In this document: positions 13,944-23,677 of the stretch, one piece after another
Position numbering within the stretch: position 1 is the first letter of the stretch
How the letters are laid out: every line of letters starts with the position of its first letter
UHGV virus genome: UHGV-1361477
DNA: 40,116 nt
Source: a virus
Reading direction: 5' to 3' (one strand)
Program-made: the position numbers and the translations under genes
Notes under the pieces: generated by a model
What the model was told of the DNA's origin: nothing
Databases searched by the model: none
Seen by the model: only the letters and a program-made list of their open reading frames with translations

Positions 13944-14329
13944 CAATGGATTATTCACAGTTAAGTGATTTTGAAATTAACGTGGCGGTATTCGAAGCCA
14001 TTCATAACGGATCACCGGATTACAAAGAAGGTGAGAATGGCGCGATGGTGTTTATCTCATTTGAGGGAGACATTGTAAACGGAGACGCAGTTGAAGTAGA
14101 GGTTGAGCGCGGATCCTTTAACCCATGCGCAAACCCAGCAGACGCATGGCCGATTATCACTGAAAACAACATCAGCATAATTTTAGACAATCCCTCAATG
14201 CCGTGCGCTACAGACAACGCAAGGGACTTGTTTGATGATGCCGGACCGAATGTTGGTGTCGCATATGACAATCCACTCCGTGCCGCCATGATTGTCTTTC
14301 TCATGATGCAGGACGCCAATAATGCTTAG
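13940..14329 (+). CDS. NinX-like protein
   Basis: 129 aa from ATG 13940; [13 protein letters not shown]-terminus typical of NinX (DUF2591) by recall. Confidence 0.5.
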
Positions 14330-14498
14330 CCCATCCCAATCCCTTCAATACCAGAAAGAAAGCGTCGAGCGGGCTTTAACGTGCGCTAACTGCGGTCAGA
14401 AGCTGCATGTGCTGGAAGTTCACGTGTGTGAGCACTGCTGCGCAGAACTGATGAGCGATCCGAATAGCTCAATGTACGAGGAAGAAGACGATGAATGA
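14322..14498 (+). CDS. ninF: NinF
   Basis: 58 aa [30 protein letters not shown]... Cys-rich, matches lambda NinF by recall. Confidence 0.7.
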   Translation: MLSPSQSLQYQKESVERALTCANCGQKLHVLEVHVCEHCCAELMSDPNSSMYEEEDDE

Positions 14499-15213
14499 GT
14501 TAATAAATGGCAATGCCATCAAAATGACAAGCATTGAAATCGCTGAGTTGGTGGGTAAGCGTCATGACAATGTGAAACGTACCATCGAAACGCTGGCTAA
14601 GAATGGTGTTATCCGGCTTCCTCAAATTGAGGATTGTGGAAGAATCAATGGGTTAGGCTTAAATCAAAGTTTTTGTGTGTATGCATTCGAAGGCGAACAA
14701 GGAAAGCGAGACAGTATTGTCGTTGTAGCCCAGTTGTCGCCGGAATTCACCGCTCGTCTTGTTGACCGTTGGCGAGAGCTTGAAGAAACTGCGGTTAATA
14801 TCCCCAAAACGCTACCAGAAGCGTTGCGCCTTGCTGCTGATCTTGCTGAGCAGAAAATGCAACTGGAAAACCAGCTCGCAATTGCCGCACCTAAAGTTGA
14901 GTTTGCCGATCGCGTTGGCGAGGCCAGCGGAATTTTGATTGGAAACTATGCAAAGGTTGTTGGAATTGGTCCAAACAAACTGTTTGCGTGGATGCGCGAT
15001 CACAAAATCCTTATTGCTTCAGGTTCCCGGCGCAATGTGCCAATGCAGGAATATATGGATCGCGGCTATTTCACAGTGAAAGAAACAGCGGTCAACACAA
15101 ATCACGGAATACAGATATCGTTCACCACAAAAATCACCGGGCGTGGTCAACAGTGGCTGACCAGAAAGCTGCTCGATAACGGAATGCTGAAAGTAACAGG
15201 GGAGGCTGCTTAA
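14491..15213 (+). CDS. Rha-family phage regulatory protein / antirepressor (KilAC-type C-terminus)
   Basis: 240 aa; N-terminal TSIEIAELVGKRHDNVKRTIE (Rha-type), C-terminal antirepressor-like domain. Confidence 0.65.
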   Translation: MNELINGNAIKMTSIEIAELVGKRHDNVKRTIETLAKNGVIRLPQIEDCGRINGLGLNQSFCVYAFEGEQGKRDSIVVVAQLSPEFTARLVDRWRELEETAVNIPKTLPEALRLAADLAEQKMQLENQLAIAAPKVEFADRVGEASGILIGNYAKVVGIGPNKLFAWMRDHKILIASGSRRNVPMQEYMDRGYFTVKETAVNTNHGIQISFTTKITGRGQQWLTRKLLDNGMLKVTGEAA

Positions 15214-15503
15214 TGGCTAACCTACGCAAAGAAGCGCGCGGAAGAGAATGCCAGGTACGTATTTACGGCGTATGCAATGGCAATCCTGAAACCACAGTTC
15301 TGGCACATTACCGGATGGCTGGAATTTGCGGAACGGGAATGAAGCCTGACGACCTGATCGGCGCATGGGCTTGTAGTGACTGCCACGCGGAGATCGACCG
15401 ACGCACCCGGATTCTCGACAACAAAGACGCCAGACTTTACCACCTCGAAGGCGTGATCAGGACGCAGGCGATACTGCTGAAGGAGGGGAAGATTAAGTCA
15501 TGA
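15213..15503 (+). CDS. YbcO-like DUF1364 protein (putative nuclease)
   Basis: 96 aa MANLRKEARGRECQVRIYGVCNGNPETTVLAH... four Cys; matches E. coli DLP12 YbcO by recall. Confidence 0.7.
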   Translation: MANLRKEARGRECQVRIYGVCNGNPETTVLAHYRMAGICGTGMKPDDLIGAWACSDCHAEIDRRTRILDNKDARLYHLEGVIRTQAILLKEGKIKS

Positions 15504-16024
15504 ACGGTAAAAGATATCCAACACAAAAAGAAATCAATGAATTGTATGAATATAATAGCGAAACAGGTTTGTTTATATACAAGAGAAGAGAAAGTGTAAG
15601 AGAGTGCTGGAATTCAACATATGCCGGTAAGATTGCTGGTTCTATAGATGAAAAAGGATACGTTCGTATATCTGTAAATAAAAAAGTTTGTCGAGCTCAT
15701 AGAATCGCATGGATATCCTTTTATGGAAGTGAACCTGATGGGGAAATTGACCACATAAATGGAGTTAAAAGCGATAACAGAATATGCAATTTGCGCGTTG
15801 TAGATGATAAACAGAACTCAAGGAACAGAAAAAAGCCTATTAATAATCGCTCTGGAGTAATGGGGGTTGCCTACTATAAGAAGAATAAAAAGTGGGGCGC
15901 ATATATAAACAGTGATAATAAAAAGATATTTCTTGGATTATACGATGACATATCTCTAGCCGTTAATGCCAGAAAATTGGCGGAATCACGATTGGGGTAT
16001 CACCATAATCATGGGAGAGGATAA
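15500..16024 (+). CDS. HNH homing endonuclease (HNH + AP2-like domain)
   Basis: 174 aa; HRIAW...IDHINGVKSDNRICNLRVV HNH motif; strongly AT-rich; sits between ybcO-like and rusA. Confidence 0.75.
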   Translation: MNGKRYPTQKEINELYEYNSETGLFIYKRRESVRECWNSTYAGKIAGSIDEKGYVRISVNKKVCRAHRIAWISFYGSEPDGEIDHINGVKSDNRICNLRVVDDKQNSRNRKKPINNRSGVMGVAYYKKNKKWGAYINSDNKKIFLGLYDDISLAVNARKLAESRLGYHHNHGRG

Positions 16025-16387
16025 ATGGCAGAATACAGATTCACACTTCCGTACCCACCGTCGCTGAACACCTACTGGCGAAGACGGGGAAGCCAATACT
16101 ACATCAGCGATAAAGGCCAGAAATACCGAAAAGACGTTCAGCAAATCATCCGCCAACTTAAGTTAGACATTTTCACCAAATCACGACTCCGCATCAAAGT
16201 CATCGCAGACGTTCCAGACTCCCGCCGCCGCGACCTCGACAACATCCTGAAAGGTTTACTCGACTCCCTTATCCACGCCGGATTTGCGGAAGACGACGAG
16301 CAATTCGATGACATTCGCGTAATTCGTGGTGTGAAAGTACCAGGTGGAAGGCTTGGAATAAAAATCACCGAACTGGAGAACGCATGA
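16025..16387 (+). CDS. rusA: RusA Holliday junction resolvase
   Basis: 120 aa; DSRRRDLDNILKGLLDSLIHAGF...GGRLGIKITELENA matches RusA. Confidence 0.85.
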   Translation: MAEYRFTLPYPPSLNTYWRRRGSQYYISDKGQKYRKDVQQIIRQLKLDIFTKSRLRIKVIADVPDSRRRDLDNILKGLLDSLIHAGFAEDDEQFDDIRVIRGVKVPGGRLGIKITELENA

Positions 16388-17063: not shown

Positions 17064-17147
17064 TTGACATCATTGAGCAAATGAGCAACACTATTCGCAT
17101 AAGCTGCCGTTAGTGACTCTTAAGTTGCAACGGTGGCTTTTTTTGTT
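17064..17147 (+). promoter_or_regulatory. candidate pR' late promoter and tR' terminator
   Basis: -35 TTGACA 17064-17069; downstream CUGCCGUU...AACGGUGG stem then TTTTTTT at 17140-17146; -10 not cleanly identified. Confidence 0.4.
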
Positions 17148-17931
17148 TGCACAACAGGTAAGAGCATTCTCCCTTATGGGGCTTGGCTTAAATGCACCGA
17201 GTGCTCTTATCGTTGTGGCAGCACAACGATAGTTTTCGTCAGAGTTGGCGACTTTGCGGTTTTTTAGAAACTGACCACAAAGATAAATGCAAACGATGAT
17301 GTTGTTCTGATGGCGGCGTAATAGCCTGTAAGTCAGCAAGGTCTTCCGACTCCTTGTAAACAAATTCGGCGCACTGGCCCGGTGTGATTAATAATGGGCA
17401 CACAACAGGTAAGAGCATTGCGCGCCTGACGAGCCCATGAGGGACGAAACGCATTAGCGTCGTGCGGAGTATCCCCAGCCGGGGAATAACTGGATACCAG
17501 GGGAGACAACCCTAAGCGCATTTACGAGTGTGTTTAGGGCGTGGGTCGGCAATGACTCCCTGTGCAGCCGACATCTGGCCCGGCAACATACAGTGCTCCT
17601 TCCGTTGTGCTGAATTAAGCGAATACCGGAAGCAGAATCGGGTCAACAAATGCGTACAGGCGTCATCGCCTCCCAGTAACAGCACACCCAAACTGAGCCG
17701 TAGCCACTGGCTATCCTGAACTCATCAGTGATAGTTACGCTGCGGCCTTCTATACATGACCTTCGTGAAAGCGGGTGGCAAGAGGCTGCGCTAACAACCT
17801 CCTGCCGTTTTGCCCGTGCATATCGGTCACGAACAAATCTGATTACTAAACACAGTAGCCTGGATTTGTTCTATCAGTAATCGACCTTATTCCTAATTAA
17901 ATAGAGCAAATCCCCTTATTGGGGGTAAGAC

Positions 17932-19323: not shown

Positions 19324-19350
19324 GCCTCGCATTCGCGGGGCTTTTTATTG
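19324..19350 (+). terminator. candidate intrinsic terminator after lysis cassette
   Basis: GCCTCGC-attc-GCGGGGC then TTTTTATTG. Confidence 0.45.
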
Positions 19351-19453
19351 CCATTACAAAAGCCATTCCCTACAGAGTGGCTTTGATAATGGCTTATACC
19401 CTACACGGGATAACTTAACTGATATCCCTTTTAACGGATAAACGGAGCCAACA

Positions 19454-19698: not shown

Positions 19699-20139
19699 AT
19701 GGCGCGCCCAACAAAGTATCAAGAGGCGTACGCCGAACAGGCACGCAAACTGTGCTTGCTGGGCTACACCGATGCAGAGCTTGCTGATTTCTTCGAAGTC
19801 AGTGAGTCAACTATTAACAAGTGGAAGCTTGATTATCCTAAGTTTTCGGAGTCCATAAAAAAGGGTAAGGCCGTCGCTGATGCAGAAGTTAGTGACCGTC
19901 TTTATCAACGCGCTATGGGCTTCGTGGCTCCAGACATCGATATTCGTGTTATTGAAAACAGAATTGTCGAAACTCCGCTTGAGAAGTATTACCCGCCTGA
20001 TACAACAGCTGCCATCTTCTGGCTTAAGAACCGACAGAAGGATAAATGGCGCGACAAGGTTGATCACGAATTAACAGGCAAAGACGGCGGCGCAATCCAG
20101 ATTGAAACATCACCGATGAGCACTCTATTCGGAAAATGA
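19699..20139 (+). CDS. terminase small subunit
   Basis: 146 aa; N-terminal HTH (ELADFFEVSESTINKW); immediately upstream of large terminase. Confidence 0.75.
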   Translation: MARPTKYQEAYAEQARKLCLLGYTDAELADFFEVSESTINKWKLDYPKFSESIKKGKAVADAEVSDRLYQRAMGFVAPDIDIRVIENRIVETPLEKYYPPDTTAAIFWLKNRQKDKWRDKVDHELTGKDGGAIQIETSPMSTLFGK

Positions 20140-21548
20140 CCTCGATTAATCCTATCTTTGAACCGTTCATTGAGGCGCATCGCTACAAAGTCGCCAAAGG
20201 CGGTCGAGGTAGCGGTAAATCATGGGCAATTGCGAGGCTGCTTGTTGAGGCGGCGCGTCGGCAGCCTGTGCGTATTCTCTGCGCTCGTGAACTGCAAAAC
20301 AGTATCAGCGATTCGGTGATCCGGCTGCTTGAAGACACCATCGAGCGTGAAGGATATTCGGCTGAGTTTGAAATTCAGCGTTCAATGATTCGTCATCTCG
20401 GAACGAATGCTGAATTCATGTTCTACGGCATAAAAAACAACCCGACGAAGATTAAATCGCTAGAAGGTATTGATATCTGCTGGGTGGAGGAAGCGGAAGC
20501 GGTAACGAAGGAATCATGGGATATCCTGATACCAACCATCCGTAAGCCGTTCTCTGAAATATGGGTGAGCTTTAACCCGAAAAACATCCTCGACGATACC
20601 TATCAGCGATTCGTTGTAAATCCTCCCGATGATATTTGCCTGCTGACGGTGAACTACACCGACAACCCGCATTTTCCTGAAGTTCTCCGTCTGGAGATGG
20701 AAGAGTGTAAACGCAGAAATCCGACACTGTATCGTCACATCTGGCTTGGTGAGCCGGTAAGCGCAAGTGATATGGCAATCATCAAACGTGAATGGCTTGA
20801 AGCTGCTACCGATGCGCACAAGAAACTCGGATGGAAAGCGAAAGGCGCTGTTGTCTCTGCGCATGACCCATCAGATACAGGGCCAGATGCTAAAGGTTAT
20901 GCATCGCGTCACGGTTCGGTGGTTAAGCGCATTGCCGAAGGTCTACTGATGGACATCAACGAGGGTGCTGACTGGGCTACTTCTCTGGCGATTGAAGACG
21001 GCGCTGACCACTACCTGTGGGATGGCGATGGCGTTGGTGCCGGGCTACGCAGACAGACAACGGAAGCATTCTCCGGTAAGAAAATCACCGCCACGATGTT
21101 TAAGGGCAGCGAATCGCCGTTCGATGAAGATGCACCGTATCAGGCCGGAGCATGGGCTGATGAAGTCGTGCAGGGCGACAACGTTCGCACTATTGGCGAT
21201 GTGTTCCGCAATAAGCGAGCGCAATTCTATTACGCGCTGGCTGACAGGTTGTATCTGACATATCGGGCGGTTGTCCACGGTGAGTATGCAGACCCCGACG
21301 ACATGCTGAGCTTCGACAAAGAAGCGATAGGCGAGAAGATGCTGGAGAAGCTGTTTGCAGAACTGACGCAGATTCAGCGCAAATTCAATAACAACGGGAA
21401 GCTGGAGCTTATGACTAAGGTCGAAATGAAGCAGAAGCTCGGTATTCCATCTCCTAACCTGGCTGATGCGCTGATGATGTGTATGCATTGCCCGGCATTG
21501 GTCCGCGAAGAAACAGAAATATACGTTCCCTCATCCTCCGGTTGGTAA
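20136..21548 (+). CDS. terminase large subunit
   Basis: 470 aa; Walker A KGGRGSGKS; nuclease domain; same length as Sf6 gp2 by recall. Confidence 0.9.
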   Translation: MTSINPIFEPFIEAHRYKVAKGGRGSGKSWAIARLLVEAARRQPVRILCARELQNSISDSVIRLLEDTIEREGYSAEFEIQRSMIRHLGTNAEFMFYGIKNNPTKIKSLEGIDICWVEEAEAVTKESWDILIPTIRKPFSEIWVSFNPKNILDDTYQRFVVNPPDDICLLTVNYTDNPHFPEVLRLEMEECKRRNPTLYRHIWLGEPVSASDMAIIKREWLEAATDAHKKLGWKAKGAVVSAHDPSDTGPDAKGYASRHGSVVKRIAEGLLMDINEGADWATSLAIEDGADHYLWDGDGVGAGLRRQTTEAFSGKKITATMFKGSESPFDEDAPYQAGAWADEVVQGDNVRTIGDVFRNKRAQFYYALADRLYLTYRAVVHGEYADPDDMLSFDKEAIGEKMLEKLFAELTQIQRKFNNNGKLELMTKVEMKQKLGIPSPNLADALMMCMHCPALVREETEIYVPSSSGW

Positions 21549-21550
21549 AC

Positions 21551-23677
21551 ATGGCAGAGACATTAGAGAAAAAACATGAGCGGATCATGCTCAGGTTTGA
21601 CCGCGCCTATTCTCCACAGAAGGAAGTGCGCGAAAAGTGCATTGAAGCTACGAGGTTTGCTCGTGTCCCCGGAGGTCAATGGGAAGGAGCAACGGCGGCT
21701 GGAACTAAGCTTGATGAGCAGTTCGAGAAGTATCCTAAGTTTGAAATCAATAAGGTAGCAACTGAACTTAACCGCATCATTGCAGAATACCGCAATAACA
21801 GAATCACTGTTAAGTTTCGTCCTGGTGACAGAGAGGCAAGCGAAGAGTTAGCCAATAAATTAAATGGTCTGTTCCGTGCTGACTACGAAGAAACTGATGG
21901 CGGTGAGGCTTGCGATAATGCATTTGACGACGCTGCTACTGGTGGTTTCGGTTGCTTCCGTTTGACGTCGATGCTGGTCAATGAATACGACCCCATGGAC
22001 GATCGTCAGCGTATTGCTATTGAACCAATATACGACCCGTCGCGCTCTGTGTGGTTTGACCCTGACGCTAAGAAGTACGACAAATCTGACGCGTTGTGGG
22101 CGTTCTGCATGTATTCGTTGTCACCTGAAAAATATGAGGCTGAATACGGAAAGAAACCTCCTGCTTCTCTGGATGTAACGTCTATGACCAGTTGGGAATA
22201 TGACTGGTTTGATGAAGATGTTATTTACATAGCGAAGTATTACGAAGTTCGTAAAGAGTCTGTTGACGTCATCAGTTATCGACATCCAATCACTGGAGAG
22301 ATTGCAACATACGACAGTGATCAGGTTGAAGATATTGAAGATGAACTGGCAATAGCTGGATTTCATGAAGTGGCAAGGCGCTCAGTGAAGCGCCGTCGTG
22401 TGTATGTATCCGTAGTGGATGGTGATGGTTTCCTTGAGAAACCTCGACGTATTCCTGGTGAGCATATCCCCCTCATCCCGGTTTATGGAAAACGCTGGTT
22501 CATTGATGACATTGAGCGTGTCGAAGGACATATTGCAAAAGCAATGGATCCACAGCGTTTGTATAACCTTCAGGTATCAATGCTGGCTGATACTGCAGCA
22601 CAAGACCCCGGTCAGATCCCTATAGTTGGCATGGAGCAAATTCGTGGACTTGAGAAGCACTGGGAGGCTCGCAACAAGAAACGACCAGCGTTCTTGCCGT
22701 TGCGCGAAGTGAGAGATAAATCTGGCAACATTATCGCTGGAGCTACCCCGGCAGGATATACACAGCCTGCGGTTATGAATCAGGCATTGGCTGCATTACT
22801 ACAGCAAACCAGTGCAGATATTCAGGAGGTTACAGGCGGCAGTCAGGCCATGCAGCAGATGCCAAGTAATATTGCTCAGGAAACGGTTAACAACTTGATG
22901 AACAGAGCAGATATGGCTTCGTTTATCTATCTGGACAATATGGCGAAAAGTCTTAAACGCGCTGGTGAAGTATGGCTGTCAATGGCGCGTGAAGTGTACG
23001 GTTCAGAACGTGAAGTGCGCATCGTTAACGAAGATGGAAGTGATGATATCGCTGTCATGAGCGCACAGGTTGTTGACAGGCAAACAGGGGCTGTTGTTGC
23101 GTTAAATGACCTTTCTGTCGGTCGATACGATGTGACGGTTGATGTTGGACCAAGCTACACAGCACGACGTGATGCAACGGTTTCTGTACTGACAAATGTC
23201 CTTAGCTCTATGCTTCCAACAGACCCAATGCGCCCGGCAATTCAGGGTATTATTCTGGACAATATCGATGGCGAAGGCCTTGATGACTTCAAAGAGTACA
23301 ACCGAAACCAACTGCTGATATCTGGCATTGCAAAACCACGCAATGAGAAAGAGCAGCAGATTGTTCAACAGGCGCAAATGGCAGCACAAAGCCAGCCAAA
23401 TCCTGAAATGGTTCTCGCTCAGGCGCAAATGGTAGCAGCGCAGGCAGAAGCGCAAAAAGCAACTAACGAAACTGCTCAAACTCAAATCAAAGCATTTACT
23501 GCCCAGCAGGATGCGATGGAGAGTCAGGCAAACACTGTCTATAAACTGGCTCAAGCCAGAAACATCGATGACAAAGCAGTGATGGAGGCAATACGCCTTC
23601 TGAAAGATGTCGCCGAGTCACAACAACAGCAATTCCAGTCACCACCACAGTCTCCGGCAGACTTAATGCCGAGTTAA
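21551..23677 (+). CDS. portal protein (P22/Sf6-type)
   Basis: 708 aa from ATG 21551; blocks KRRRVYVSVV and GEHIPLIPVYG align with P22 gp1 KRRRVYKSII and GEHIPIVPVFG. Confidence 0.9.
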   Translation: MAETLEKKHERIMLRFDRAYSPQKEVREKCIEATRFARVPGGQWEGATAAGTKLDEQFEKYPKFEINKVATELNRIIAEYRNNRITVKFRPGDREASEELANKLNGLFRADYEETDGGEACDNAFDDAATGGFGCFRLTSMLVNEYDPMDDRQRIAIEPIYDPSRSVWFDPDAKKYDKSDALWAFCMYSLSPEKYEAEYGKKPPASLDVTSMTSWEYDWFDEDVIYIAKYYEVRKESVDVISYRHPITGEIATYDSDQVEDIEDELAIAGFHEVARRSVKRRRVYVSVVDGDGFLEKPRRIPGEHIPLIPVYGKRWFIDDIERVEGHIAKAMDPQRLYNLQVSMLADTAAQDPGQIPIVGMEQIRGLEKHWEARNKKRPAFLPLREVRDKSGNIIAGATPAGYTQPAVMNQALAALLQQTSADIQEVTGGSQAMQQMPSNIAQETVNNLMNRADMASFIYLDNMAKSLKRAGEVWLSMAREVYGSEREVRIVNEDGSDDIAVMSAQVVDRQTGAVVALNDLSVGRYDVTVDVGPSYTARRDATVSVLTNVLSSMLPTDPMRPAIQGIILDNIDGEGLDDFKEYNRNQLLISGIAKPRNEKEQQIVQQAQMAAQSQPNPEMVLAQAQMVAAQAEAQKATNETAQTQIKAFTAQQDAMESQANTVYKLAQARNIDDKAVMEAIRLLKDVAESQQQQFQSPPQSPADLMPS

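What the first reader, a model, noticed from the sequence alone, without database searches (positions are those of the whole stretch)
15500..16024. Free-standing HNH homing endonuclease inserted between ybcO-like gene and rusA
The ybcO-rusA pair is normally adjacent in lambdoid nin regions. Here a 174-aa HNH/AP2-type endonuclease ORF, visibly more AT-rich than its neighbours, is precisely intercalated with 4-bp overlaps on both sides. This is the signature of a mobile homing endonuclease gene.
Basis: partly seen in the sequence, partly recalled or inferred. Interest (0 to 1): 0.5.

Follow-up and report, generated by a model that had tools for sequence, protein, structure and literature searches.

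The report
Mobile nuclease gene in prophage
A small AT-rich gene for a site-specific DNA-cutting enzyme (HNH nuclease plus AP2 DNA-binding domain) sits exactly between two conserved genes of a P22-like E. coli phage; about 97% of related phages lack it, so it is an ordinary but unusually clean example of a selfish "homing" gene in a temperate phage.

Summary
The ORF is real: 15500..16024, + strand, 174 aa. It has a full-length HNH_3 match (E 1e-16) and keeps every residue that is invariant in its family. Its predicted fold (pLDDT 91.6) is an I-HmuI-like HNH nuclease followed by an AP2 DNA-binding domain. GC is 35% against 50-54% in the flanks.

One detail of the finding is wrong. Only the upstream junction is a 4-bp ATGA overlap. 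Downstream, TAA abuts the rusA ATG with no overlap.

Relatives such as HK75, HK620, HK97 and CUS-3 have ybcO and rusA fused by ATGA with no insert. The gene is in 33 of 5426 complete E. coli genomes, while about 996 carry the ybcO/rusA module. It is in 18 IMG/VR contigs and in no deposited phage genome.

All carriers share one cassette, 15499..16068: the gene plus the first 44 nt of rusA. Within it, 14 substitutions (16028..16064) are almost completely linked to the gene. The flanks are as diverse as in the empty alleles.

A decayed orthologue sits at the same ybcO junction in Symbiopectobacterium. Paralogues occupy three other sites in sister prophages.

Verdict: a free-standing HNH-AP2 homing endonuclease gene, a new member of a known kind. 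Cleavage and homing are inferred, not shown.

The parts
15213..15503 (+). ybcO (DUF1364, putative nuclease), the upstream flank. Its TGA stop overlaps the HEG (homing endonuclease gene) start codon as ATGA.
   Evidence: Pfam PF07102 E 7.6e-44; sequence. No site in ybcO is associated with presence of the HEG.
15482..15506 (+). Translation start region taken over from rusA: the Shine-Dalgarno-like GGAGGGG (15482-15488) plus ATGAACG. These 7 nt are identical to the first 7 nt of rusA in insert-free alleles, so the left end of the insertion is ambiguous by 7 nt.
   Evidence: Alignment with HK75; junction catalogue of 79 loci.
15500..16024 (+). Free-standing HNH-AP2 endonuclease gene (HEG), 174 aa.
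15692..15823 (+). HNH_3 catalytic motif, residues 65-108, containing the family-invariant H85, N87, D92, N93, N97, L98; N109 follows immediately.
   Evidence: Pfam match over profile positions 2-46 of 46; invariant columns of the 54-sequence alignment A2.
15851..15994 (+). AP2-like DNA-binding domain, residues about 118-165: three beta strands and a helix.
16013..16021 (+). GGGAGAGGA, the last sense codons of the HEG (conserved C-terminal HGRG). It gives a Shine-Dalgarno-like sequence 3 nt upstream of the relocated rusA start (the TAA stop lies between them).
   Evidence: Sequence; the C-terminal NHGR motif is conserved in the family. A function as ribosome-binding site is inferred.
16025..16387 (+). 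rusA (Holliday junction resolvase), the downstream flank. It starts directly after the HEG stop.
   Evidence: Pfam RusA 2.4e-16; PHROG 34 7.5e-53.
16028..16064 (+). HEG-linked variant tract: 14 substitutions within rusA nt 4-40, fixed in all 17 carriers analysed. Nine are absent from all 58 empty alleles and five occur in 1 to 7 of them (frequency differences 0.88-1.0). This is the predicted location of the protected recognition/cleavage site, or a co-converted donor flank.
   Evidence: Per-site association. The 20-mer GAATACAGATTCACACTTCC occurs in IMG/VR only in the 18 HEG-bearing contigs.
15499..16068 (+). Minimal cassette shared by all carriers. The nearest flanking polymorphisms (15498 and 16069) already segregate among carriers with identical HEGs.
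   Evidence: Pairwise identical-run analysis over 210 carrier pairs; site counts.

Best explanation
The ORF at 15500..16024 is a free-standing homing endonuclease gene (HEG) of the HNH-AP2 family. It lies in the delayed-early 'nin' operon of a P22-like temperate coliphage.

Anatomy (shown). The insert of exactly 525 nt entered at the zero-length ybcO|rusA junction.
- It took over rusA's start codon, its ATGA coupling to ybcO and its upstream ribosome-binding site.
- It hands rusA a new ATG preceded by a Shine-Dalgarno-like GGGAGAGGA made of the HEG's own last codons.
- So neither neighbour is disrupted.

The protein has an I-HmuI-like N-terminal and HNH nuclease module and a C-terminal AP2 DNA-binding domain.

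Mechanism (inferred).
- The enzyme would be made during lytic growth, in co-infection or on infection or induction of a cell holding an insert-free relative.
- It would bind the empty ybcO|rusA junction, with the AP2 domain probably on the GC-rich rusA nt 28-41, and nick or cut within roughly the first 45 nt of rusA.
- Recombinational repair from the HEG-bearing genome would then copy the 570-nt cassette (15499..16068) into the cut genome.
- Carriers would be immune because the insert splits the site and because their rusA 5' end carries 14 substitutions.

The same activity would also act as marker exclusion against insert-free competitors.
For: Family and fold:
- HNH_3 E 1.1e-16 over the full profile; PHROG 99 E 5e-63; PADLOC 'homing endonuclease' model E 1.2e-5.
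- All 12 invariant columns of a 54-member alignment are kept, including H85, N87, D92, N93, N97 and N109.
- The HNH+AP2 architecture is an established HEG family (Magnani 2004, as cited in PMC10448857).

Presence/absence at one exact site:
- HK75, CUS-3, HK620, HK97, HK022 and others lack it, with ybcO-ATGA-rusA.
- 33 of 5426 complete E. coli genomes carry it, against 996 with the module.
- 18 IMG/VR contigs carry it.
- No DNA match in 50,697 phage records.

Foreign composition: GC 35.4% and GC3 29.7%, against 50-54% and 55-60% in the flanks.

Maintained function: every full-length copy read is intact (19 sequences), with 12 synonymous and 6 nonsynonymous variants over 103.7 and 418.3 sites, so pN/pS is about 0.12.

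Protected-site signature: 14 sites in 16028..16064 are fixed in carriers and absent or rare in empty alleles (frequency differences 0.88-1.0). No associated site lies in ybcO or beyond 16069.

Movement relative to the flanks:
- HEG nucleotide diversity is 0.0075. In carriers, ybcO is 0.041 and rusA 0.023, the same as in empty alleles at 0.040 and 0.021.
- Identical HEGs lie next to ybcO alleles differing at up to 15 of 287 sites (Fisher p 1.3e-6).
- The flanks differ from 2 nt upstream and from 44 nt downstream.

Site fidelity across genera: Symbiopectobacterium has a ybcO about 75% identical, followed with the same ATGA overlap by an orthologue about 78% identical.

Family behaviour: paralogues of 40-44% identity sit at other present/absent sites in sister P22-like prophages.
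Against: - No cleavage or homing has been observed. Everything about the target is inferred.
- The gene is seen at only one site and at low frequency, about 3% of modules. There is no sign of a sweep or of independent gains.
- Background linkage in this region already decays within 25-50 bp: mean r2 is 0.73 at 1-10 bp, 0.28 at 11-25 bp and 0.09 at 26-50 bp. Unlinked, diverse flanks are therefore also expected from the ordinary intense recombination of lambdoid phages. Only the two nearest SNPs (-2 and +44, with r2 of 0.06 and 0.03) hint at extra exchange at the borders.
- Low diversity inside the insert is also expected for any rare allele class.
- The linked rusA 5' tract resembles a natural allele found without the HEG in roi|rusA genomes. 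It may therefore be inherited donor sequence rather than an evolved immunity.
- The AP2 call is sub-threshold by sequence.
- The Symbiopectobacterium orthologue is equally compatible with long vertical residence.
Confidence: 0.62

Rival explanations
1. Passive cargo or a retired selfish gene. An HNH-AP2 nuclease gene was acquired once by illegitimate recombination, using the 7-nt ATGAACG microhomology on the left and a crossover in rusA on the right. It now spreads only vertically and by the ordinary homologous recombination that shuffles nin modules. Its nuclease would serve another purpose, such as attacking competing phages or host DNA, or none at the insertion site.
For: - Only one site is known and the frequency is about 3%.
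- Background LD decays within 25-50 bp, so unlinked flanks need no targeted break.
- A rare allele class is expected to have low internal diversity.
- The linked rusA tract resembles a pre-existing allele class.
- The orthologue in Symbiopectobacterium has diverged about as much as its ybcO, as under vertical descent.
Against: - Purifying selection and intact catalytic residues show an active protein is maintained.
- The family is known for homing.
- A 14-substitution block lies exactly next to the insert and nowhere else.
- The nearest flanking SNPs are unlinked although pairs at under 10 bp normally have r2 of about 0.7.
- Paralogues at three other present/absent sites in the same phage group look like a typical HEG family pattern.
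Confidence: 0.28
2. Domesticated accessory nuclease. The protein works with its neighbours YbcO (putative nuclease) and RusA (Holliday junction resolvase) in phage recombination or replication restart. It is kept because it benefits the phage, not because it homes.
For: It lies between two nuclease genes in one translationally coupled operon. It is under purifying selection.
Against: - About 97% of phages with the same ybcO and rusA do without it.
- No flanking site other than the 40-nt rusA 5' tract covaries with its presence.
- Its composition is foreign.
- Its closest relatives, at 56% identity or less, lie in unrelated contexts.
Confidence: 0.06
3. Packaging-associated HNH, like HK97 gp74, which assists terminase in cutting DNA.
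For: It is an HNH protein in a tailed phage.
Against: - It lies in the nin region, about 4 kb upstream of the terminase genes (20136..21548), not beside them.
- P22-like phages package by the headful mechanism (established knowledge).
- It has an AP2 DNA-binding domain and an I-HmuI-like fold.
- It is absent from most relatives with the same virion module.
Confidence: 0.01

Closest known systems
HNH-AP2 homing endonuclease family (Magnani, Sjolander and Hake 2004; 'IPA-HNH' HEGs of Vibrio phage ICP1 in Barth et al. 2023, PMC10448857)
   Same: N-terminal HNH nuclease plus C-terminal AP2 DNA-binding domain. Small (about 170 aa), free-standing, phage-borne, and located at boundaries of exchange between related phages.
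   Different: This member has a canonical HNH_3 motif, whereas the ICP1 genes are too divergent for that profile. It lives in a temperate P22-like coliphage nin operon rather than a lytic phage. Its AP2 domain is sub-threshold by Pfam. No member this close has been tested biochemically; the next best protein is at most 56% identical.
I-HmuI (Bacillus phage SPO1, PDB 1U3E)
   Different: I-HmuI is encoded inside a group I intron and is a nicking enzyme with a helix-turn-helix C-terminal domain (my knowledge of the literature). The protein here is free-standing and ends in an AP2 domain.
Free-standing HEGs of T-even phages (SegG, SegE, SegF, MobE)
   Same: They are inserted between conserved genes without disrupting them, and are present or absent among relatives. 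The target lies in a neighbouring conserved gene. Flanking markers are co-converted, and donor alleles carry protective substitutions (SegG and SegE are cited in PMC10448857; the remainder is my knowledge).
   Different: Seg proteins are GIY-YIG enzymes, and the hosts are lytic phages with their own recombination-dependent replication. Here the carrier is temperate, so targets could include resident prophages. The linked tract is very short (44 nt).
RefSeq/NCBI entries 'HNH endonuclease signature motif containing protein' (e.g. WP_001535922.1)
   Same: This is the same protein. The exact sequence is on 339 public contigs, and the 90% cluster has 145 members, all listed ones named E. coli.
   Different: These are only automatic names. 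I found no description of the insertion site, the polymorphism or the linked tract in the searched literature.

Membership tests
HNH / His-Me finger endonucleases (Pfam HNH_3, PF13392) | Sequence match to the HNH_3 profile above the curated threshold | tested here: met
   60.6 bits against a cut-off of 24.8, E 1.1e-16, profile positions 2-46 of 46.
HNH / His-Me finger endonucleases (Pfam HNH_3, PF13392) | Catalytic His and the Asn/Asp residues of the motif are intact | tested here: met
   H85, N87, D92, N93, N97, L98 and N109 are invariant in 54 homologues and present here. The motif reads EIDHINGVKSDNRICNLRVVDDKQNSRN.
HNH / His-Me finger endonucleases (Pfam HNH_3, PF13392) | Fold similar to a solved HNH homing endonuclease | tested here: met
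AP2 DNA-binding domain (PF00847) | Sequence match above the Pfam gathering score | tested here: not met
   14.8 bits against a cut-off of 33.3, E 0.036, and only profile positions 1-28 of 54. Many homologues do carry a precomputed PF00847 hit.
AP2 DNA-binding domain (PF00847) | Three-stranded sheet packed on a helix, superposable on solved AP2 domains | tested here: met
Free-standing homing endonuclease gene | Lies between genes (not in an intron or intein) and is present or absent at the same exact site in otherwise homologous genomes | tested here: met
   Precise 525-nt indel against HK75. 58 empty alleles against 18 occupied ones in IMG/VR. 33 against about 960 E. coli genomes.
Free-standing homing endonuclease gene | The enzyme cleaves the insert-free allele at or near the insertion site | not testable with these tools
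   Needs purified protein and the empty ybcO|rusA junction as substrate.
Free-standing homing endonuclease gene | The carrier allele is protected because the target is disrupted or altered | tested here: inconclusive
   The insert separates the ybcO 3' end from rusA, and 14 linked substitutions lie in rusA nt 4-40. That these prevent cleavage is inferred.
Free-standing homing endonuclease gene | Unidirectional gene conversion with co-conversion of flanks (above-input inheritance) | tested here: inconclusive
   Identical inserts lie on diverged flanks (p 1.3e-6), with very short shared tracts. But background LD in the region decays in 25-50 bp, so ordinary recombination is not excluded.
Free-standing homing endonuclease gene | Composition or phylogeny indicating horizontal origin | tested here: met
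   GC3 is 29.7% against 55-60% in the flanks. There is a gap from at least 98% to at most 56% identity to the next full-length relatives among 5.8 billion proteins.
Terminase-associated HNH (HK97 gp74 type) | Located beside the terminase/portal genes and required for cos cleavage | tested here: not met
   The gene is in the nin region. Terminase is at 20136..21548 and the portal at 21479..23677.

The most novel reading that the evidence does not exclude
The gene is an active homing and marker-exclusion weapon operating among temperate P22-like and lambdoid coliphages. It would be expressed from the early operon when a carrier infects, or is induced in, a cell that also holds an insert-free phage or prophage. 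It would cut the rusA 5' end of the rival and convert it, leaving a 570-nt footprint.

Together with its paralogues at ninF, Q|holin and lysis|terminase sites, it would mean that endonuclease-made breaks, not only illegitimate recombination, set some of the classic mosaic boundaries of the nin region.
Probability: 0.4. Interest if true: 0.5.

Novelty: new member of a known kind. Interest (0 to 1): 0.33.

Why it matters
Free-standing homing endonuclease genes have been worked out mostly in lytic T-even phages. Temperate lambdoid phages are the textbook case of mosaic genomes, yet the source of their module boundaries is still debated.

This locus offers a compact natural system in genetically tractable phages, since HK620, HK97 and P22-type relatives are the empty alleles. 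It has:
- a defined empty site;
- a defined 570-nt cassette;
- a predicted 40-nt target with 14 diagnostic substitutions.

It could be used to test whether nuclease-made breaks drive exchange between phages and resident prophages. Practically, it is an uncharacterised HNH-AP2 enzyme with a predictable long recognition site. If the enzyme proves inactive, the finding is simply a correctly annotated accessory gene.

Tried and rejected
- DNA search of the gene against 50,697 phage records found no match at about 65-70% sensitivity. No cultured phage can serve as a reference carrier.
- A scan of species-representative genomes with the family alignment found nothing above 49% identity. No intermediate lineages were found there.
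- Contexts of the next-closest proteins P0002 (49%) and P0009 (56%) are unrelated or too short. tblastn of the window's neighbours against the distant IMG/VR loci found no close ybcO or rusA neighbour.
- I hoped linkage disequilibrium would separate homing from ordinary recombination. It does not, because background LD already decays within 25-50 bp.
- Promoter and terminator scans around the gene were at chance level: 4 found against 4.6 expected, and 4 against 3.9. There is no evidence for a promoter of its own.
- Rfam and tRNA scans of the whole window found nothing.
- PADLOC gave only its generic 'homing endonuclease' model and no defence system.
- The truncated copy in strain 1008S19 looked at first like a second insertion context. 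It is an IS1-mediated deletion of a decayed prophage.
- The 70%-identical 139-nt hits in eight other E. coli genomes are a different HNH gene near kil/recT, not this element.
- I rejected the packaging-HNH reading and the idea of an artefactual ORF.

Full report
THE OBSERVATION

The ORF exists as described: ATG at 15500, TAA at 16022-16024, + strand, 174 aa.
- The gene before it (15213..15503) is a YbcO/DUF1364 protein (Pfam E 7.6e-44).
- The gene after it (16025..16387) is RusA (Pfam 2.4e-16; PHROG 34 7.5e-53).
- Further neighbours are NinB, NinX, NinF, Roi/Ant, NinH and Q.

The rest of the window carries a P22-type portal, coat protein, tailspike head-binding domain, terminase, integrase and a CI-like repressor. 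The window is therefore a whole P22-like temperate phage or prophage, and the ORF lies in its nin region.

The ORF is clearly AT-rich. GC is 35.4% and GC3 29.7%, against 54.3%/59.8% for ybcO and 49.6%/55.4% for rusA. The sliding-window trough reaches 0.34.

One detail of the finding is wrong. The upstream junction is a 4-bp ATGA overlap. Downstream, the stop TAA is followed immediately by the rusA ATG, with no overlap.

WHAT THE PROTEIN IS

- Pfam HNH_3 matches over the whole profile (E 1.1e-16). PHROG 99 'HNH endonuclease' gives E 5e-63. PADLOC returns only its generic homing endonuclease model.
- In an alignment with 53 homologues, twelve columns are invariant and this protein keeps all of them: Y18, H85, N87, D92, N93, N97, L98, N109, G122, V123, G146, A154. 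The HNH motif is therefore not degenerate.
- An AlphaFold model built on that alignment is confident (mean pLDDT 91.6).
- Foldseek superposes residues of about 118-165 on the TEM1 AP2 domain at 1.2 A.
- By sequence alone the AP2 call is below threshold (14.8 bits against 33.3). The 'AP2' label rests on fold and on homologues that carry a precomputed AP2 hit.
- HNH plus AP2 is a recognised family of homing endonucleases in phages, cyanobacteria and protists (Magnani et al. 2004, as summarised in PMC10448857).

PRESENCE AND ABSENCE

- The 2.7 kb around the gene matches 389 phage records. None covers 80% of it. The best matches (CUS-3, HK75, HK629, HK620, HK97, HK022, mEpX1/2) match in two pieces that skip the ORF.
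- In HK75, ybcO and rusA are fused by ATGA. The alignment with the window shows one clean gap of 525 nt.
- The gene's DNA has no match in 50,697 phage records, even with sensitive blastn. By tblastn all phage relatives are below 60% identity.
- Among 5426 complete E. coli genomes, 996 have the ybcO/rusA module. Only 32-33 have the insert, at 98.9-100% identity, and always at this site.
- One further copy is 5'-truncated by an IS1-mediated deletion in a decayed prophage.
- IMG/VR holds 18 carrier contigs.
- In a 5.8-billion-protein collection there is one 90% cluster of 145 members, and all listed ones are named E. coli. The exact sequence is on 339 contigs. The next full-length relatives are at most 49-56% identical.

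ANATOMY OF THE INSERTION

The first 7 nt of the ORF (ATGAACG) are the first 7 nt of rusA in empty alleles. The left boundary is therefore ambiguous by 7 nt.

The simplest description is an insertion of 525 nt after ATGAACG.
- The endonuclease ORF inherits rusA's start codon, its coupling to ybcO and the upstream GGAGGGG.
- The insert ends in ...CATGGGAGAGGATAA ATGGCAG. This gives rusA a new start preceded by a Shine-Dalgarno-like GGGAGAGGA, made from the conserved C-terminal HGRG codons of the endonuclease.
- Both neighbours stay intact.

The role of these sequences in translation is inferred. A promoter and terminator scan found nothing beyond chance.

POPULATION COMPARISON

I compared 17-18 carriers (IMG/VR plus the window) with 58 empty ybcO|rusA alleles from IMG/VR.

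1. Fourteen sites within 16028..16064 (rusA nt 4-40) are fixed in all carriers.
   - Nine are absent from every empty allele and five occur in 1 to 7 of them. Frequency differences are 0.88-1.0.
   - No site in ybcO and no site from 16069 onward is associated with the insert.
   - The carrier-type 20-mer GAATACAGATTCACACTTCC occurs in IMG/VR only in the 18 carrier contigs.
2. Nucleotide diversity within the insert is 0.0075. In the same carriers, ybcO, rusA and ninH have 0.041, 0.023 and 0.024. These are the same values as in empty alleles: 0.040, 0.021, 0.026.
3. Carriers with identical inserts have ybcO alleles differing at up to 15 of 287 sites (Fisher p 1.3e-6).
   - Among pairs with identical or near-identical inserts, the flanks start to differ as close as 2 nt upstream and 44 nt downstream.
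   - The unit common to all carriers is therefore 15499..16068.
4. Within the insert there are 12 synonymous and 6 nonsynonymous variants, giving pN/pS of about 0.12. Every full-length copy read (19 sequences) is intact.
5. The four carriers examined in full (window, GPEC172, MNCRE44, XH992) are all P22-like. They differ in integrase, recombination genes, replication genes and Q allele.

LIMITS OF THAT EVIDENCE

I measured background linkage among common SNPs in the same sample. Mean r2 is 0.73 at 1-10 bp, 0.28 at 11-25 bp, 0.09 at 26-50 bp and about 0.03 beyond that.

Recombination here is so intense that unlinked, fully diverse flanks are expected even without a targeted break. A rare allele class is also expected to have low internal diversity. 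Only the two nearest SNPs speak for extra exchange at the cassette borders: r2 with the insert is 0.06 at -2 and 0.03 at +44, where about 0.7 is typical. Two sites are thin evidence.

The population data therefore show that the cassette has been moved onto many different flanks. They do not show how.

THE LINKED TRACT

The 14 substitutions change RusA residues 2, 5, 7 and 14, and four synonymous positions.

A similar 'YRFT' 5' end exists without the endonuclease gene in five IMG/VR contigs, where rusA follows roi directly and ybcO is missing. It differs from the carrier tract at about 8 of 45 positions, against about 14-15 for the common empty allele. The tract is therefore probably an old rusA allele class that travels with the insert, not a burst of new mutations.

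Either way it behaves as part of the cassette. A homing model also predicts such a block: an altered, uncuttable target beside the gene, and obligatory co-conversion of whatever lies between insertion point and cut site.

The empty allele is nearly invariant over rusA nt 7-26 and carries a GC-rich CCCGCCGTCGG at nt 28-41. Two of the linked changes alter that stretch. AP2 domains are reported to favour GC-rich DNA (PMC10448857). Placing the AP2 domain there is my speculation.

RELATIVES ELSEWHERE

A 1.2-kb Symbiopectobacterium contig carries a ybcO about 75% identical at the DNA level. It is followed, with the same ATGA overlap and the same MNGK start, by an orthologue about 78% identical. That orthologue is broken by a roughly 183-nt insertion and has lost its 3' end. 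The gene family member is therefore tied to this junction across genera, either by site-specific invasion or by long residence.

Paralogues of 44% and 40% identity lie at other sites in sister prophages:
- between Q and the holin gene in GPEC172;
- inside ninF in MNCRE44.

GPEC172 also has a GIY-YIG nuclease gene between the lysis and terminase genes. At all three places this window is the empty allele. Several nuclease genes of one family, each at its own present/absent site in one phage group, is the pattern known from the seg and mob genes of T-even phages (my knowledge).

CONCLUSION

This is a free-standing HNH-AP2 homing endonuclease gene inserted at the ybcO|rusA junction.

- Shown: identity and fold, intact catalytic residues, purifying selection, foreign composition, the exact indel, the 570-nt common cassette with 14 linked substitutions, carriage on diverse flanks and backbones, and the same site in another genus.
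- Inferred: that the enzyme cuts the empty junction, probably within the first 45 nt or so of rusA; that repair copies the cassette; and that the variant tract protects carriers.

I put the full mechanism at about 0.6. The main rival, at about 0.28, is a maintained nuclease gene that now spreads only by ordinary recombination.

I found no description of this site in the searched literature. Public databases name the protein only generically. It is a new member of a known kind, of modest interest, and a convenient model for nuclease-driven exchange among temperate phages.

Noticed in passing
window about 17100-17107 (between Q and the holin gene); L003 21611-22300: Prophage GPEC172 has a 690-nt insert here with a 170-aa HNH-AP2 paralogue (44% identical to the gene under study). 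The window is the exact empty allele, and the flanking matches abut at 17100-17107.
   Followed up: partly
window 19347-19374 (between lysis genes and small terminase); L003 24208-25008: GPEC172 carries an 801-nt segment with a GIY-YIG nuclease gene (L003 24355-24840) where the window has 28 nt. This is another present/absent nuclease gene.
   Followed up: partly
window about 14434-14437, inside ninF (14322..14498); L268 18913-19455: In prophage MNCRE44 a 168-aa HNH-AP2 paralogue (40% identical) sits inside ninF, which is annotated there as two NinF fragments. ninF is intact in the window. Whether the split ninF is still functional (intron-like or in-frame) was not examined.
   Followed up: partly
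window 17168-17683: About 515 nt between Q and the holin gene are relatively GC-rich (0.55) and lack any long + strand ORF, tRNA (ARAGORN) or Rfam hit. They are not shared with GPEC172. Relatives XH992 and 1008S19 have tRNA-Asn and tRNA-Thr at this position.
   Followed up: no
L104, L105, L109, L182, L186 (IMG/VR): A minority arrangement in which rusA follows roi directly (ATGA overlap, no ybcO). Its rusA 5' end (MNEYRFTL...) resembles the tract linked to the endonuclease gene. It may mark the rusA lineage in which the gene first resided.
   Followed up: partly
L187 about 610-792 (Symbiopectobacterium contig JBPETA010000371.1): The orthologous endonuclease gene is interrupted by a roughly 183-nt insertion of unknown nature and loses homology after about codon 115. 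This fits the pseudogene-rich genomes of that symbiont.
   Followed up: no
L002 3248-4438 (E. coli 1008S19): An IS1A element abuts a copy of the gene that lacks its first 87 nt. The replication and nin genes upstream, including ybcO, are deleted, so this is a decayed prophage.
   Followed up: yes
window 15213-15503: YbcO/DUF1364 is itself labelled 'HNH endonuclease' in PHROG 131 and in the RefSeq annotation of HK75. The insert thus lies between two nuclease genes. Automatic annotations can confuse the two 'HNH' genes.
   Followed up: no
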